Virus record (IMG/VR): IMGVR_UViG_3300050821_010761
Span: 40,808-104,807 of that record
DNA: 64,000 nt
From: a virus
Lineage: Duplodnaviria; Heunggongvirae; Uroviricota; Caudoviricetes
Strand: one strand, 5' to 3'
A program made the translations under genes and the position numbers. Positions 1-51,996 of the stretch are shown here, one piece after another. A model generated the notes under the pieces. The model did no database searches and was not told the origin of the DNA. It saw nothing but the letters and a program-made list of their open reading frames with translations. Position 1 is the first letter of the stretch. Every line of letters starts with the position of its first letter.

Positions 1-386
1 ATAGGCTTAATGTCATTTTCTACACGATCAAATATCTCCGCTGGACTATTGGTGTCGTAAATAATCATGCGATCCTGATCGATTTCAGGGAAGATTTTAC
101 CTTGGAGGGCGCCTCGCAATTCAGTGTTAAAAATGATTGCAATACCATCTGGATCACGACGCTGCATTTCTAGGACCATGGAGTAAATGGACAAAGATTT
201 TCCTGCCTTTTGTTCGGAGAAGAATAGTACAGAAGCGTTTTTTGGAATACCGTGGCTTTTGTTAGCAAAAATCCAATTAAAATAGGGACTTGGAGTATAA
301 AGACAATTTTCTTCAGCAAAAGAATCATAATTAGGATCAACGGAATCGTCATACCCACGCAGTTGTTTGGTCCATTTATTTGGCAT
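1..386 (-). CDS. RecA/UvsX-like recombinase, N-terminal part (runs off window start; not in ORF track)
   Basis: Manual translation from ATG at 386: MPNKWTKQLRGYDD...TPSPYFNWIFANKSHGIPKNASVLFFSEQKAGKSLSIY...FNTELRG. This follows the RecA pattern TGSxxLDxALGxGGLPxGRIVEIxGPESSGKT with a variant Walker A (SEQKAGKS). It lies next to UvsY-like and SSB genes. Confidence 0.8.
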   Translation of the reverse strand, partial: MPNKWTKQLRGYDDSVDPNYDSFAEENCLYTPSPYFNWIFANKSHGIPKNASVLFFSEQKAGKSLSIYSMVLEMQRRDPDGIAIIFNTELRGALQGKIFPEIDQDRMIIYDTNSPAEIFDRVENDIKP

Positions 387-389
387 TTT

Positions 390-656
390 TTATCCTGTAA
401 TCGCTTTAAGACGCTTCATTGCGGCTTGGGTTTGTATTTCTAAAATACGAATTTCTAGCATGGTCGCCAATTCTGGAATTTGATGGAGGGTACGGGTAGC
501 GTCAAAAATATCATTGTTGAATTGGTCATCCAGTAATGTTCTAGCGAGGGAGATTGTAACCGTACCATCTGGATGCATTTTACGAGGACAATCAGAAAGA
601 ATTTTAAACGCTTGCATTAGAGTCACTATCGTTTGGTTTAATTGCGTAGATTCCAT
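390..656 (-). CDS. hypothetical protein
   Basis: 88-aa ORF, GGAG RBS, co-directional in a tightly packed operon. Confidence 0.7.
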   Translation of the reverse strand: MESTQLNQTIVTLMQAFKILSDCPRKMHPDGTVTISLARTLLDDQFNNDIFDATRTLHQIPELATMLEIRILEIQTQAAMKRLKAITG

Positions 657-25216: not shown

Positions 25217-25292
25217 GAGACGGAGACTTAAAACGTCTGCAGCGGATAGTTGTGACATGGACAATTGCGGGATCCGCCCCGTCTCTTTTTTT
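25217..25292 (+). ncRNA. candidate small structured RNA or leader, cloverleaf-like, followed by a T7 run
   Basis: GAGACGG/CCGTCTC closing stem; AGAC/GTCT, AGTTGT/ACAATT and GCGG/CCGC hairpins. Confidence 0.45.
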
Positions 25293-25339
25293 GAAGCATG
25301 AATTAAAAGGTCTCTTTTTTAAAAAGTACAGGAGAAATA

Positions 25340-43433: not shown

Positions 43434-43895
43434 TTATCCTCCTTTCTTGGTTAAATATTTGATAGCGAATTCCAAAAATAATACGTTGTCTTGAAAGTTT
43501 CCAAGACCTAAGTTGCAATTAGAGCAGAGAAGACCTCTTATGGTACCAGTGGAATGACAATGGTCCACAGATAGGGATCTATGACTCTTGTTTTCAATTC
43601 CACCACAAATTGCGCACACGCCCTTTTGCTCCGACAACATGCGTTCGTAATCTTCTATAGTGATGCCAAAAATGCGCTTAAGCTCCCAATCTCGATACTT
43701 GCGTTTGTTGGAGTGATACTGATTTTTAGATTTTAATAGAATTTGCGGATTTTTTCTCGAATGCTCGCGATTATAGGCATTTACACAAGATCGACAATAG
43801 GAAGTCAACCCGTCTTTCTTGGATTTGTTTTTACCGAACGCTGAAATGTCTAAATCTGAGTTGCACCAGTTACAATGCTTGGTCTGTGTCTGCAT
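43434..43895 (-). CDS. endonuclease VII-type HNH nuclease
   Basis: CNWC...YCRSC; CAICG; SVDHCH...RGLLCSNCNLGLG. Confidence 0.9.
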   Translation of the reverse strand: MQTQTKHCNWCNSDLDISAFGKNKSKKDGLTSYCRSCVNAYNREHSRKNPQILLKSKNQYHSNKRKYRDWELKRIFGITIEDYERMLSEQKGVCAICGGIENKSHRSLSVDHCHSTGTIRGLLCSNCNLGLGNFQDNVLFLEFAIKYLTKKGG

Positions 43896-44274: not shown

Positions 44275-44847
44275 CTAAACGAGCCCGACGGACTGAAGCA
44301 AACTAACAGTTTCTTCACTCAATTTAATTTTTGCGCCCAAATTCTTCTGGGAAAGTTGGTCTTCGATATCTTCTAGTCGTTTCTTAATAAGGGAATCTGT
44401 ATTCTTGAATGCGCTAACGTCTTCTTTCAATGCGACTGGCAGTGAGAATGTAACGGAAGCCTCACTAAAACGGCTCTCGCCTTTCTCAAGATGAGATTTC
44501 TTTGCCGCAGCAAGATCGTTAGCTTCCAATTGATCCAGTGTGTCAACGTCATCTATGGATAATGCCAACAACGATTGTAATTCTTCCCTACGATTGATCA
44601 AAGCATTAATGCCAGTTGAATGATTAGCTTCAGCAATTTGCTGCCGAATCATAAAACGAGTAACTAGCAAGCCACTTCTCGTATTAACATCTGAGAGATA
44701 TTTTTCACGACCTTTTGCTAGTACGCCATTCCTTTCTTCTTCTGTGGCTAGAACGCGTACGCGAACAGAAGAATTAGGCTTCATAGCGTTAATATACGTC
44801 AAGATTTTTGCTTCAAGTTTGCGGGCTTTGCGAAGGTTCAATTCCAT
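44275..44847 (-). CDS. helical coiled-coil protein, possibly DIP1984-like
   Basis: 190 aa, GGAG RBS; IRQQIAEAN..GI..LINRREEL and LEDIEDQLSQKN...IKL pattern. Confidence 0.75.
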   Translation of the reverse strand: MELNLRKARKLEAKILTYINAMKPNSSVRVRVLATEEERNGVLAKGREKYLSDVNTRSGLLVTRFMIRQQIAEANHSTGINALINRREELQSLLALSIDDVDTLDQLEANDLAAAKKSHLEKGESRFSEASVTFSLPVALKEDVSAFKNTDSLIKKRLEDIEDQLSQKNLGAKIKLSEETVSLLQSVGLV

Positions 44848-44882
44848 GTTTTCTCCAAAAATCGAGTATAAAATATACGAAC

Positions 44883-44971
44883 TCTTTTAACTCATGCTCA
44901 TAACCAAAACCTGTAAGCAGCTGATTTCTTAAGAGGACGTTTTCTTTTAACTCATGCTCATAACCAAAACC
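44883..44971 (-). CRISPR. CRISPR-like mini-array: 2 identical repeats and 1 spacer
   Basis: GGTTTTGGTTATGAGCATGAGTTAAAAGA at 44971-44943 and 44911-44883, period 60; spacer matches 45221-45251 at 29/31. Confidence 0.8.
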
Positions 44972-44986
44972 AGTGGTTACTATGTG

Positions 44987-45014
44987 ACTATAACATGAAA
45001 TTTTTAGAAGTCAA
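44987..45014 (-). promoter_or_regulatory. sigma70-type promoter TTGACT-16-TATAGT with extended -10, driving the mini-array
   Basis: TG-T-TATAGT; the first repeat starts 15 nt after the -10 box. Confidence 0.65.
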
Positions 45015-45017
45015 CAA

Positions 45018-47087
45018 TTATTCTTTGTCTTTTTTGAAAAAACTAGCTGCAAGACTTTTGTGGAAATCCAAGGACTTTTCCAGTTTCATGGATTTATTCA
45101 AAAGCATGGCTTGGCCAAATGCTCTTATCTCACCTTTAGTCATGTACGGCATGCGTGATTTCATGAAGGTTTCGAATTCTTCACGCTTTTCCCACTTATC
45201 GTACTCTTCTTCAACTCGCTTGTAAGCAGCTGATTTCTTAAGAGGGCGCTTCGGATGTTTCAACATTACTTCCGCAGTCTTCTTAGAATCGGGCCTATAA
45301 GTGCCTTGATCTATCTGACGTTGCAAGTGATCGATTTTCTTATCTTTTGGCATCCAATTAGGATCTTTTGAATCTTTTTCAAGACTTTCTTTAACCAAAG
45401 CAGCGCCGCCGACCAAACGATCAGGGGAACATAGTCCAGATCCAGCTTCCAGCGATTTATGCATGGTTTGTCTAGGTGCCTGCAAATTATTATGAAGCAT
45501 GTTATTGTTTGGGGCACCCGCTGCGGGAGTAGGATCCAAAACCTGTTTATTTGGAATACTCTGTCTTTGCTGATTTTGTGAAGATATATTAGAAGAGCTT
45601 CTATTGACTTTGTGCTTGTCCCAATGTCTTTTGCTATTATTTGGATAAGCTTCTTCTGCGCGTCTAGCTCTCTGTTGTTTCTGGTTTGCTTCTTTAGCGT
45701 TACTTTCTTCGCCTGGTCGTAGCGTTTCGGATTTTTTATAATCGACTTTACCGCTCATTCCTGGATCATGTAATTTGTCAGTCTTTGGAGAAGCATTTGG
45801 ATGTAAATTCGCGGATTTAGGTCTTGAATTACGCTTAATTTCGCGATCTTTCATGGAAATAGCAGCTGAACTATGCAAATTTGCTTTATCATTATGATGT
45901 CTAGCCATGGAAGGATTAGCATTAGCGGCCTTTTTATGCCAAGCGGCGGCTTCTTCATGTTCCTTAGCGTTAAATCCAGTTTCACTGACTTTTGCGTGGC
46001 TGTGTACATCCTTACCACTAGAAGTCGTCCCGATCTTAGAACCATTTGGAGTGGAAGGTGGAACAATTTTCAAAGCCTTTGACATATCCTCAGATTTTGG
46101 AAGGCTAGGTTTTGGCATTGAACGCATTTCTTTCAAAGTTTGACCATGAAGCTGCTTGGCTGAACCACCAATGTCTCTGATTACATTTGGATTAGTCGCG
46201 GATTCACCAATGGGTCCGCCATGAACTGGTTTATTGATACCTTTGTGGTGACTTACGTCTAAATTACCTTTATGTTTGGCCTGTGGATATGGAGATTCTT
46301 GAGAATTACCGTGACCCTTTGCCATTTTTTCAGTTCTAGCCATATCTGGTTCGGATTGCGTCATCATATTGGTAGGTGATATTGGGCCAGATCCGCTAAG
46401 ACCAGAAGATGAGCCGTAAGCCAAACCGCCAGCACCGACGTCTTTTTTCATCGGCTTTCTGAATAACTCTTTTGCCCGTTTGACCAAAGACTCTTTTTTT
46501 AGGAGATCCCAAAGACCTTCACTCTTATTCATCTTAACTACTTCAATTTCAACGTAATTTTCCGTTTTGAAAATATTATCAAGGTTGTCTTTTGGTTTTT
46601 TACCAGACGAAGGTACCATTTCGGCAACTGCTTGTTTATTACAAGGCAGTCCAGTGCAGGTGATTTTACGCGCAATAGAACGAACTATTGTATTACCTTG
46701 TTTCGATATGGTAGCACCTTCGACGCTGAACCCTATGATATCCTTAGCATTTTTGCCACGATGATCGAGGTCATAACGGAACAATCCAGCTACAGTCCTT
46801 GCAGAATCAGTGTAATCGTCAAACAATTCTCCAAGAACATATAGATAAGGAACCTGACACTTTTCCCAATAATACTTCTGACGATCATCCTCGCAATCCT
46901 TAACAGAGAAAATTTTTCTAGCTTTTAGGATCTTACCAACTAGTTGATCTGGCACGTCTTTTTTGTGCTCCCAGTTCAAACTTCCATCAATTTCGAGGCT
47001 ACTGATATCGAGACCTGCAATATCAACTATTTCGCCAGAAGAATCGATATTTTGGCTTGCGCCTATGCCGTCGACGTATGTCCCCAA
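45018..47087 (-). CDS. prohead protease (HK97-type) with long multi-segment C-terminal extension
   Basis: TTG start with GGGAG RBS; DSSGE, NWEH (His), GFSVEG (Ser), ITCTGLPCN in the first ~160 aa; ~500-aa low-complexity tail. Confidence 0.8.
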   Translation of the reverse strand: MGTYVDGIGASQNIDSSGEIVDIAGLDISSLEIDGSLNWEHKKDVPDQLVGKILKARKIFSVKDCEDDRQKYYWEKCQVPYLYVLGELFDDYTDSARTVAGLFRYDLDHRGKNAKDIIGFSVEGATISKQGNTIVRSIARKITCTGLPCNKQAVAEMVPSSGKKPKDNLDNIFKTENYVEIEVVKMNKSEGLWDLLKKESLVKRAKELFRKPMKKDVGAGGLAYGSSSGLSGSGPISPTNMMTQSEPDMARTEKMAKGHGNSQESPYPQAKHKGNLDVSHHKGINKPVHGGPIGESATNPNVIRDIGGSAKQLHGQTLKEMRSMPKPSLPKSEDMSKALKIVPPSTPNGSKIGTTSSGKDVHSHAKVSETGFNAKEHEEAAAWHKKAANANPSMARHHNDKANLHSSAAISMKDREIKRNSRPKSANLHPNASPKTDKLHDPGMSGKVDYKKSETLRPGEESNAKEANQKQQRARRAEEAYPNNSKRHWDKHKVNRSSSNISSQNQQRQSIPNKQVLDPTPAAGAPNNNMLHNNLQAPRQTMHKSLEAGSGLCSPDRLVGGAALVKESLEKDSKDPNWMPKDKKIDHLQRQIDQGTYRPDSKKTAEVMLKHPKRPLKKSAAYKRVEEEYDKWEKREEFETFMKSRMPYMTKGEIRAFGQAMLLNKSMKLEKSLDFHKSLAASFFKKDKE

Positions 47088-50457: not shown

Positions 50458-51996
50458 ATGCCAAACAAATCAAAAATAGTCGGTGAGATAGAAGTAAAAG
50501 TTAGAGAAATGTGCGAAAAGGGATACAATCCAACGCACATTGGCAAACAAGTAGGACTAGCAAAGGATACGATCAAGTCCTGGGCTAATAAAAACGGGAT
50601 CGTTCTTAGTAATAGGCTAAGCAGTAAAATAATAGACTTAGAGCCAAAAATAATCGAGCTTTTAAAAAACGGCGTTTCCAGAAAACAGATTCAGACTCAA
50701 TTACATGTTCATTATGATCAAGTTACAGAGATCTCTCTACGCCATGGCATCAAAATTAAAGATCAACTTGAAGCAGCTATAGACAAAACTATCTCTTTAG
50801 AGGAAGCCCAAAAAAGGCTCCCACCAGATGGCAGCCAAGTCATTGGCTACGATCAACAGAAAAATAAGTACATTATTAAGGCTTTAGACGGCTTTATTTA
50901 TCATAAATCATCTGCCAAAATCAAACAGGGAGATCCTCGCGGCAAGAGTGGTACCCCCTTAACCATAGAAAATGTTAAGGAACAATTGGTTAAGCTTGGC
51001 TACGAGTATGTTGAAGGTTTTACAATCAAAAGAAAACCATTAAAGGCTAAACATCTAAAATGTGGGCAAATTAGAGAGAATAGGCTTGAGAATTTTTATT
51101 TTCAAGATTGTCCAACGTGTTCTAATACTGGAACGTCTAAAGCAGAATTGGAATTACTTGAATGGGTTAGAACGTTCTATCCTAGCGCTCACAAGTACAA
51201 GTTTCAGGAACGTATAACTAAGCCAAAGGAGATTGACATTTACATACCAGAACTGAAGCTAGGCATAGAATATTGTGGACTTTACTTTCATTCTGAAAAA
51301 ATAGAGAATGCTGGAGAAAGTAAACATTACAAAAAGATGTTGGCAGCCAATGAAATTGGCATTCGTTTGATCACCATTTTTGAAAATGAGTGGTTGAACA
51401 AGCGCGATCAGATAAAGGGTTTTCTTATCTCCATCTTTAAAAGAAACGAGCGTATCGTTTATGCCAGAGACTGCAAAGTAGTCGAATTGGATTGTGACGT
51501 AGCTAACGCTTTCTTAAATGAAACTCACATACAGGGAAAAACCACTAATAATGGCATTTTCTATGGACTAGTTTATGAGGGAGAATTGCTAGCTGTGGTA
51601 AATGGCGGCATGCATCCACAAAAAGCTCAAAAAAGCGATACCCTTTATCTAAATCGATTGGCGTTCAAATTTAACACTACGGTAGTTGGAGGCTCTTCTA
51701 GATTATTCTCATATCTTGTAAAATATGCAAAAAGTAATAATTATAATAAAATCATCTCATGGTCTGACAATAGGTGGTCTGAAGGGAATGTTTATAGTAC
51801 TCTCGGATTCACATTCGATTCGCAAAAACTTAAAGGTCGCGGTTTAAGAGATGGCTCTATTTGGCCTGAATTTTATTACTGTTTTATGGGAAGCATATAT
51901 ACAAAAAAGGGTGTGAAAAAACTTCAACTCGATACAACCATGTTGCCTAAAGTCTATGATTGTGGCAAAAAACGCTGGATCTTCAATATTCCATGA
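50458..51996 (+). CDS. homing endonuclease-like protein (Vsr-like domain plus GNAT-like C-terminus, Hef-like)
   Basis: Two N-terminal HTHs; CPTC; EIDIYIPELKLGIEYCGLYFHS...LITIFENEW; C-terminal VVGGSSRLF...SWSDNRWSEGNVY...YDCG. Confidence 0.7.
   Translation: MPNKSKIVGEIEVKVREMCEKGYNPTHIGKQVGLAKDTIKSWANKNGIVLSNRLSSKIIDLEPKIIELLKNGVSRKQIQTQLHVHYDQVTEISLRHGIKIKDQLEAAIDKTISLEEAQKRLPPDGSQVIGYDQQKNKYIIKALDGFIYHKSSAKIKQGDPRGKSGTPLTIENVKEQLVKLGYEYVEGFTIKRKPLKAKHLKCGQIRENRLENFYFQDCPTCSNTGTSKAELELLEWVRTFYPSAHKYKFQERITKPKEIDIYIPELKLGIEYCGLYFHSEKIENAGESKHYKKMLAANEIGIRLITIFENEWLNKRDQIKGFLISIFKRNERIVYARDCKVVELDCDVANAFLNETHIQGKTTNNGIFYGLVYEGELLAVVNGGMHPQKAQKSDTLYLNRLAFKFNTTVVGGSSRLFSYLVKYAKSNNYNKIISWSDNRWSEGNVYSTLGFTFDSQKLKGRGLRDGSIWPEFYYCFMGSIYTKKGVKKLQLDTTMLPKVYDCGKKRWIFNIP

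What the first reader, a model, noticed from the sequence alone, without database searches (positions are those of the whole stretch)
44883..45254. CRISPR-like mini-array whose spacer matches the phage's own adjacent protease gene except for synonymous mismatches at one end
Seen: two identical 28-29-nt repeats, 60-bp period, with a promoter just upstream. Taking a 28-nt repeat (GGTTTTGGTTATGAGCATGAGTTAAAAG), the 32-nt spacer A AAA CGT CCT CTT AAG AAA TCA GCT GCT TAC A aligns to 45252-45221 (G AAG CGC CCT ...) with mismatches only at positions 1, 4 and 7. All three are third-codon synonymous (Pro, Lys, Arg), and CC lies immediately 5'. Established: 28+32 geometry, a CC PAM and a PAM-proximal seed typify type I-F, and viral mini-arrays targeting competing viruses are known. 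The repeat lacks the I-F hairpin, so the type is unresolved. Inference: the guide targets a close relative's allele (superinfection exclusion or phage-phage competition) while the seed mismatches protect self, or it represses its own late gene without cleavage.
Basis: partly seen in the sequence, partly recalled or inferred. Interest (0 to 1): 0.9.

Follow-up and report, generated by a model that had tools for sequence, protein, structure and literature searches.

The report
Phage repeat-spacer-repeat copying its protease gene
A 169-kb soil phage carries, in the leader of one of its messenger RNAs, a CRISPR-shaped unit (28-base repeat, 32-base insert, 28-base repeat) whose insert copies the phage's own neighbouring protease gene except at three silent positions. 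It most likely works as a borrowed-CRISPR guide of an already described kind, but no matching CRISPR system could be found.

Summary
Two identical 28/29-nt repeats lie 60 bp apart. The 32-nt insert between them matches the head-protease gene 309 bp away at 29 of 32 bases. A second assembly reproduces the stretch.

New facts:
- The unit lies just downstream of a sigma-70-type promoter that relatives conserve. It replaces a structured leader found in relatives.
- The repeat is a family private to this phage: six strong copies and one decayed copy at five intergenic sites, all in gene sense, absent from about 80 related loci and genomes.
- One other site also reads repeat, 32 nt, decayed repeat.
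- The three mismatches are exactly the three silent positions of the 8-nt end next to a CC. The insert keeps the genome's preferred codons and the gene holds rarer ones. The CC lies in a conserved proline codon.
- The phage has no cas genes.
- No CRISPR array with this repeat, and no perfect target, turned up in any collection. The repeat has no hairpin.

Best reading (about 0.5): a cas-less mini-CRISPR array plus solitary repeat copies, with the cognate system unknown. Main rival (about 0.3): a phage regulatory motif with a local rearrangement. This scan has noted similar phage mini-arrays on other DNA.

The parts
44987..45014 (-). Sigma-70-type promoter (TTGACT, 16 nt, TGtTATAGT). Its -10 element ends about 15 nt before the first repeat. 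It drives the leader and the 190-aa gene.
   Evidence: 10 of 12 matches, with the TG extension. The element lies at the same place in relatives L112 and L106.
44944..44971 (-). Repeat R1 (promoter-proximal), 28 nt.
   Evidence: Identical to R2. No hairpin.
44912..44943 (-). 32-nt insert ('spacer' S1), a copy of part of the protease gene.
   Evidence: It matches 45221-45252 at 29 of 32 bases. It keeps the preferred codons CCA, AAA, CGT.
44884..44911 (-). Repeat R2, 28 nt, 36 nt upstream of the ATG of the 190-aa gene.
45221..45254 (-). Resident match in the protease gene (45221-45252), with CC directly 5' in gene sense (45253-45254). It encodes P-K-R-P-L-K-K-S-A-A-Y.
   Evidence: The CC is codon positions 1-2 of a Pro that relatives keep.
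45018..47087 (-). 689-aa head maturation protease with a long tail (source of the insert).
   Evidence: phrog_1028, N-terminal part; weak FlgM-like hit in the tail.
44275..44847 (-). 190-aa gene co-transcribed with the unit. It belongs to a widespread viral family of unknown function and also occurs in relatives that lack the repeats.
   Evidence: No terminator lies between the unit and the gene.
25282..25309 (+). Solitary, more diverged copy of the repeat, 30 nt upstream of the ATG of the GroEL-like gene. A promoter-like site and a hairpin with a T-run lie upstream of it.

Best explanation
This is a cas-less, CRISPR-type mini-array carried by a lytic-looking 169-kb soil phage distantly related to Myxococcus phage Mx1.

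Shown:
- One copy of a 28-nt repeat sits about 9 nt after the predicted start of the 190-aa gene's mRNA.
- That copy has been duplicated exactly around a 32-bp fragment of a protease-gene allele.

Inferred:
- A Cas1-Cas2-type integrase leaves this product when it inserts a spacer at a repeat.
- The unit is transcribed from the conserved promoter.
- In a host with a matching effector it would give a guide made of the repeat tail, the 32 nt and the repeat head.
- That guide would recognise protease alleles reading CCA-AAA-CGT next to CC, meaning very close relatives or the phage's own ancestor.
- The resident gene escapes because all three silent sites of the 8-nt CC-proximal seed are recoded. 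The CC itself cannot change without altering a conserved proline.
- The other copies would be solitary repeat units (decoys of the RNA anti-CRISPR kind) and one decayed second mini-array.

The CRISPR type and the host are unknown. The 28+32+CC pattern is I-F-like, but the repeat lacks the I-F hairpin.
For: - Exact 28/29-nt duplication flanks a 32-nt insert drawn from a gene 309 bp away. Only 7 exact direct repeats of 18 nt or more exist in the whole genome, and two of them are these.
- The homology fills the insert end to end. The four non-silent bases among its first seven all match (p about 0.004).
- Mismatches fall only at silent sites 1, 4 and 7, next to CC and on the promoter-proximal side, as type I polarity requires.
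- The insert holds preferred codons (usage 0.45, 0.68, 0.21). The gene holds rarer ones (0.10, 0.32, 0.15).
- The repeat family is private to this phage. It is absent from 65 related loci, 5 whole related records and closer syntenic relatives. That fits poorly with a lineage promoter.
- The unit replaced a conserved structured leader.
- The promoter lies directly upstream, as reported for viral solitary repeat units (PMC10651486).
- A single spacer similar but not identical to the carrier's own genome is the published norm (PMC7099407).
- A second site reads repeat, exactly 32 nt, then a repeat decayed at its 3' part.
Against: - No CRISPR array with this repeat turned up in 185,579 species genomes, JGI metagenome contigs, IMG/VR, plasmids or Rfam CRISPR-DR models. 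The collection scans need exact words, so a diverged host repeat would be missed.
- No perfect target was found.
- There is no repeat hairpin and there are no cas genes in the phage.
- Three copies sit 30-36 nt before start codons. All copies are in gene sense in intergenic DNA, which also fits a regulatory element.
- The 32-nt 'spacer' of the second site is itself a complete strong promoter, which is odd for a captured spacer.
- Expression and processing are unknown.
Confidence: 0.5

Rival explanations
1. The 28-nt element is a cis-regulatory signal of this phage, not a CRISPR repeat. It could be a promoter for an unrecognised factor, an RNA-processing site or a protein-binding site in mRNA leaders. 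The tandem pair with a gene fragment between would then be a by-product of local recombination or repair, for example a templated insertion near the homing-endonuclease genes.
For: - Six strong copies at five loci are all intergenic and all co-oriented with the downstream gene.
- The distance to the ATG is 36, 35 and 30 nt at three genes.
- At the GroEL-like gene the copy follows a terminator-like hairpin and is the only candidate signal before the ribosome site.
- One copy is followed by twin hairpins and a terminator, like a small RNA gene.
- No CRISPR counterpart was found anywhere.
Against: - The motif is absent from all relatives, including syntenic ones that keep the neighbouring sigma-70-type promoter.
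- No phage sigma factor was detected.
- Scores drop sharply after six near-identical copies, unlike a graded promoter family.
- This reading does not explain the exact repeat duplication around exactly 32 nt, the CC, or the clustering and codon direction of the three silent differences.
Confidence: 0.3
2. The element is a very small mobile or recombination-prone sequence that spreads between intergenic sites. It could be a scar of cassette shuffling, like the promoter-stem-loop cassettes of T4-type phages. The insert would be a passenger with no guide function.
For: - The family is dispersed and private to this genome.
- The GroEL-site copy is flanked by a 9-nt direct repeat, GTCTCTTTT.
- The unit replaced an older leader.
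Against: - No similarity extends beyond about 28 nt between sites.
- The other sites have no flanking duplications, and no transposase-like partner was seen.
- It leaves the silent-site pattern unexplained.
Confidence: 0.1
3. The guide binds the phage's own protease gene and represses it without cleavage.
For: Crisp-like regulatory RNAs with partial matches exist in hosts and phages (bioRxiv 10.1101/2024.10.29.618823; 10.1101/2023.03.03.530964).
Against: In those systems pairing is kept at the PAM-proximal end and lost distally. Here the mismatches occupy three of the first seven positions next to the CC, where pairing must start. The protease is an essential late gene.
Confidence: 0.04
4. Assembly artefact.
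For: Only one sample holds the sequence.
Against: Two assemblies agree base for base at about 12x depth. Gene spacing is identical in a third record. The repeats are shorter than typical assembly words.
Confidence: 0.02

Closest known systems
Virus-borne cas-less mini-CRISPR arrays (Faure et al. 2019 and Medvedeva et al. 2019, as summarised in PMC7099407 and PMC6858448)
   Same: One spacer lies between two repeats with no cas genes in the virus. The spacer is very similar but not identical to the carrier's own genome, as expected for a weapon against close relatives.
   Different: In the known cases the repeat matches the host's CRISPR arrays. Here no array with this repeat was found, no target virus was found, and the repeat is unstructured.
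Solitary repeat units / RNA anti-CRISPRs (Racr; Camara-Wilpert et al. 2023, PMC10651486)
   Same: Lone repeat copies sit in intergenic DNA, often right after a promoter, and can share a transcript with a protein gene.
   Different: Racrs are recognised by their likeness to known host repeats and often lie beside acr genes. Here the likeness cannot be shown, and the copies lie in leaders of ordinary phage genes (chaperonin, recombinase neighbour, virion genes).
Type I-F CRISPR-Cas
   Same: 28-nt repeat, 32-nt spacer, CC next to the match on the non-target strand, and a seed at the PAM-proximal end.
   Different: The repeat lacks the stable hairpin that Cas6f binds and shows no evident likeness to I-F repeats. 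The likeness judgement rests on my own knowledge of the consensus and was not tested with a classifier.
Viral crRNA-like regulatory RNAs (Cracr; bioRxiv 10.1101/2024.10.29.618823)
   Same: A compact repeat-spacer-repeat unit in a phage with a partially matching spacer.
   Different: Cracr spacers match host cas or toxin promoters and keep the seed. This one matches the phage's own structural gene and has lost the seed.
Dispersed phage regulatory motifs (stoperators and start-associated sequences of mycobacteriophages; promoter-stem-loop cassettes of T4-type phages)
   Same: An asymmetric motif sits in intergenic DNA, in one orientation relative to transcription, close to gene starts.
   Different: Those motifs are shared by related phages and occur in tens of copies. 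This one is private, has six copies, and one copy is duplicated around a gene fragment.

Membership tests
Virus-borne mini-CRISPR array | Two or more near-identical direct repeats of CRISPR length flanking a unique spacer of CRISPR length | tested here: met
   28/29-nt identical repeats with a 32-nt insert. A second site reads 28 + 32 + decayed repeat.
Virus-borne mini-CRISPR array | The repeat belongs to a repeat family found in CRISPR arrays beside cas genes (host or virus) | tested here: not met
   No array turned up in genome contigs, metagenome contigs, viral contigs, plasmids, phages or Rfam. The collection scans need exact 14-28-nt words, so a diverged or unsampled host repeat is not excluded.
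Virus-borne mini-CRISPR array | The spacer matches a virus, usually a close relative | tested here: inconclusive
   It matches the phage's own gene at 29 of 32 bases. No perfect match was found in IMG/VR or in 80 related loci. The available relatives are too diverged at the site.
Virus-borne mini-CRISPR array | No cas genes on the element | tested here: met
   95 ORFs of 170 aa or more were scanned against PADLOC and Pfam. Only a generic DEDDh exonuclease matched. The largest unknown proteins are tail or baseplate proteins.
Virus-borne mini-CRISPR array | Transcribed and processed into a crRNA | not testable with these tools
   A promoter is present and conserved. No RNA run holds the stretch.
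Type I-F CRISPR | 28-nt repeat, 32-nt spacer, CC PAM on the promoter-proximal side | tested here: met
Type I-F CRISPR | Stable hairpin in the repeat for Cas6f | tested here: not met
   The minimum free energy is -0.7 kcal/mol, no better than shuffles.
Solitary repeat unit / Racr | A lone repeat copy in intergenic DNA downstream of a promoter | tested here: met
   Copies lie at window 25282-25309 and at genome positions 40030, 110100 and 120566.
Solitary repeat unit / Racr | Mimics the CRISPR repeat of the host | not testable with these tools
   The host is unknown. No matching array was found.
Phage promoter or regulatory motif | Intergenic, with a fixed orientation and distance to genes | tested here: met
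   Distances to the ATG are 30-36 nt at three genes.
Phage promoter or regulatory motif | Shared by related phages and/or paired with a cognate factor | tested here: not met
   The motif is absent from relatives. No sigma-70 region 2 or 4 was found in the genome.

The most novel reading that the evidence does not exclude
The hairpin-less 28-nt repeat belongs to an undescribed RNA-guided system. It could be a CRISPR subtype of an uncultured soil host with I-F-like spacer size and PAM but a different repeat-handling enzyme, or a guide system run by the phage itself. In this reading the phage keeps three decoy copies and two guide units inside the leaders of ordinary mRNAs, and has silently recoded its own protease gene to stay invisible to its own guide.
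Probability: 0.15. Interest if true: 0.8.

Novelty: new variant of a known kind. Interest (0 to 1): 0.55.

Why it matters
If the CRISPR reading holds, this is a clean natural record of self-avoidance in a phage that carries a guide against its own kind.

- The PAM is locked by a conserved proline, so the phage recoded every silent site of the seed to rarer codons.
- It would also show a solitary repeat in an mRNA leader acting as a landing pad for spacer capture.
- It would point to a repeat class absent from current collections.

If the regulatory reading holds, it is a private 28-nt control element that spread through one phage genome. That would be of local interest only.

Tried and rejected
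- Exact 28-mer in IMG/VR and in species genomes: nothing.
- 20-nt core in IMG/VR: 42 hits. All are a coding coincidence (the peptide YEHELK in portal-like and other genes), including the 178-kb record G001.
- The same core in genomes: 7 single hits, at chance level.
- Two-copy core patterns: the metagenome scan returned one unrelated coding tandem duplication. The IMG/VR scan returned one unrelated 21-nt coding repeat.
- BLAST of the whole unit against plasmids and phages: chance hits only.
- Rfam scans around all five sites: nothing.
- The insert (degenerate at the three silent sites) and the second site's insert in IMG/VR: no match.
- Profile of the six copies against 1.2 Mb of relatives: nothing.
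- Sequencing runs: one DNA holder, probably the source; no RNA holder is listed.
- Exact-protein look-up of the 190-aa product: found only in this sample.
- Relatives cannot be drawn for a virus record by the genome search.
- Readings considered and dropped: DGR or retroelement (no reverse transcriptase, and the differences are not adenine-specific), sigma-54, sigma-28, sigma-32 or MotA-type promoters (the spacing does not fit, by eye), nick sites (the copies follow gene direction rather than one strand), and a mini-ORF (no ribosome site).
- Host identity was not resolved. The nearest isolate is Myxococcus phage Mx1, at 51% capsid identity.

Full report
**What is there**

- On the strand that carries the genes (window minus strand) the order is as follows.
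  - The stop of the 689-aa head protease gene lies at 45018.
  - A sigma-70-type promoter, TTGACT-16-TGtTATAGT, lies at 45014-44987.
  - After 15 nt comes repeat R1 (44971-44944), then a 32-nt insert S1 (44943-44912), then repeat R2 (44911-44884).
  - After 36 nt with a GGAG ribosome site comes the ATG of a 190-aa gene at 44847.
- R1 and R2 are identical over 28 nt, and over 29 nt counting the next A. No further copy exists in the window at up to 3 mismatches, and none appears in shuffles.
- S1 equals 45252-45221 of the protease gene at 29 of 32 bases, on the same strand. The genome-wide chance expectation is about 3e-9.
- The whole 169-kb genome has only seven exact direct repeats of 18 nt or more. 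Two of them are R1/R2 and S1/gene.
- A Logan contig of the soil run that probably gave rise to the record carries 44300-45700 without a single difference. A third record has the same 170-nt gap between the two genes.

**Context**

- The window is part of an IMG/VR record of 168,807 bp rated complete, at 41% G+C.
- It encodes a DNA polymerase, a GroEL-like chaperonin, a portal, a capsid protein and several homing endonucleases.
- The nearest isolate is Myxococcus phage Mx1, at 51% capsid identity.
- Sixty-five related viral contigs were fetched through the capsid protein. The closest complete one is only about 68% identical in DNA over conserved genes.
- Closer, fully syntenic relatives (protease, 190-aa gene, endonuclease VII, and so on) were reached through the protein database.

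**The leader**

- In relatives L112 and L106 the same promoter follows the protease stop or precedes the 190-aa gene. It is therefore that gene's promoter.
- L112, L144-L147 and L148 carry downstream of it a conserved hairpin leader with compensatory base changes.
- The phage studied here keeps only the first few bases of that leader and has R1-S1-R2 in its place.
- The unit is therefore transcribed, if at all, as the 5' part of an mRNA. It starts about 9 nt after the predicted start site, and no terminator precedes the gene. The leader as a whole folds no better than shuffles.

**The repeat is a dispersed family private to this genome**

- In gene sense, the last 20 nt of the repeat (TTATGAGCATGAGTTAAAAG) recur with 0-4 mismatches at four other places. 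In genome coordinates these are 40030, 66097 (window 25290-25309), 110108 and 120566. A T-rich tract precedes each copy, as in the full repeat.
- A profile of the six copies finds them at E 1e-6 to 1e-4. The next hit scores E 1.7, so the family is discrete.
- All copies are intergenic and point the same way as the gene downstream.
- Three copies lie 36, 35 and 30 nt before a start codon.
- One copy lies 10 nt after a stop codon and is followed by twin hairpins and a terminator.
- At 120566 the copy is followed by exactly 32 nt and then a decayed copy, GGTTTTGATTATGA, a 6-nt gap, then ACTAAAAG. Those 32 nt are themselves a complete promoter of the same type as the one above.
- No copy exists in five whole related records, in the 65 loci, or in the closer relatives.
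- It is the top dispersed repeat of this genome. The closest complete relative has nothing comparable.

**The three differences**

- In gene sense they are insert positions 1, 4 and 7. Each is the third base of a codon: Pro CCA in the insert against CCG in the gene, Lys AAA against AAG, and Arg CGT against CGC.
- The four non-silent bases among the first seven all match (p about 0.004). The homology therefore fills the insert from end to end.
- The 32 nt hold 11 silent sites. The three that differ are the three nearest one end (p about 0.012 for either end).
- That end adjoins R1, the promoter-proximal repeat. In the gene it adjoins CC. This is the polarity of a type I guide with a 5' PAM.
- The insert holds the preferred synonymous codon each time (0.45, 0.68 and 0.21 of usage). 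The gene holds rarer ones (0.10, 0.32, 0.15). CCG is used 3 times among the 39 Pro codons of this gene.
- The CC is codon positions 1-2 of a proline that all aligned relatives keep.
- The simplest account is that the gene moved away from the insert at every silent site of an 8-nt seed, because the PAM could not move. This is inference. Capture from a sister allele followed by chance is not excluded.

**What could not be found**

- Neither the 28-mer, nor the 20-nt core, nor two-copy core patterns occur as an array in 185,579 species genomes, the JGI metagenome contigs, IMG/VR, plasmids or phage records. All hits were coding coincidences or unrelated tandem repeats.
- Rfam's CRISPR repeat models do not match.
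- No perfect target for either insert was found.
- The phage has no recognisable cas gene and no sigma factor.
- The 190-aa protein belongs to a large viral family of unknown function that is also present where the repeats are absent. It is a passenger and not part of a guide module.

**Weighing**

- For a spacer-integration product used as a guide:
  - An insert of exactly 32 bp, drawn from phage DNA next to CC, is bracketed by an exact duplication of a 28-bp unit.
  - Selection-like recoding of the seed in the resident gene adds to this.
  - The pattern matches what is published for virus mini-arrays (PMC7099407) and solitary repeat units (PMC10651486).
  - This scan has noted similar cases on other DNA (e1-370586, e1-3700269).
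- Against it:
  - The defining link to a real CRISPR system is missing.
  - The repeat is unstructured.
  - The placement of the other copies near gene starts, and a 'spacer' that is a working promoter at the second site, fit a cis-regulatory element at least as well.
- I put the mini-array reading at about 0.5 and the regulatory-motif reading at about 0.3. The rest goes to a small mobile or recombination scar, self-repression and artefact.
- Type I-F membership is not claimed, because one defining feature (the hairpin) was tested and failed.

Noticed in passing
L112:3988-4092 (-), L144:5015-5119, L145:5005-5106, L148:3107-3195: Relatives carry a conserved hairpin in the leader of the 190-aa gene. 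The closing stem is AACCTCTGTAC paired with GTAAATCGAGAGT, and four inner pairs show compensatory changes. It may be a cis-regulatory RNA. This phage has replaced it with the repeat unit.
   Followed up: partly
outside the window: genome 120512-120593 (L141 about 313-394, minus strand): A second repeat, exactly 32 nt, then a decayed repeat. The 32 nt are a complete TTGCAA-16-TGtTATAGT promoter facing a 99-aa gene.
   Followed up: partly
outside the window: genome 110100-110200 (L140 about 301-400, plus strand): A solitary repeat copy lies 10 nt after a virion-protein gene. Two near-identical hairpins and a T-run follow it. This could be a small RNA gene of about 70-90 nt.
   Followed up: no
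window 25275-25320: The repeat copy before the GroEL-like gene is flanked on both sides by the direct repeat GTCTCTTTT. A terminator-like hairpin precedes it.
   Followed up: no
window 45018-45400 (protease tail): There is a weak FlgM (anti-sigma-28) Pfam hit in the C-terminal tail of the head protease. Precomputed hits and a JGI name show the same in several relatives (P0002-P0013).
   Followed up: no
L003-L044 (IMG/VR): The 20-nt repeat core is identical to the coding sequence for YEHELK in a conserved portal-like gene of about 39 unrelated viral contigs. I treated this as a coincidence of open reading frames.
   Followed up: yes
outside the window: genome 149571-149627: A 43-nt tandem repeat of about 2.3 copies. 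Its nature was not examined.
   Followed up: no
G003 (L123) about 73,160-73,520: The closest complete relative has a long run of 15-nt tandem repeats (GTGCGAACCTGtctg-like). It is probably a pentapeptide-repeat coding region.
   Followed up: no
window 43434-43895 and 50458-51996: Free-standing endonuclease VII/HNH-type homing endonuclease genes lie close to the unit on both sides. They may be relevant if the rearrangement arose by break repair.
   Followed up: no
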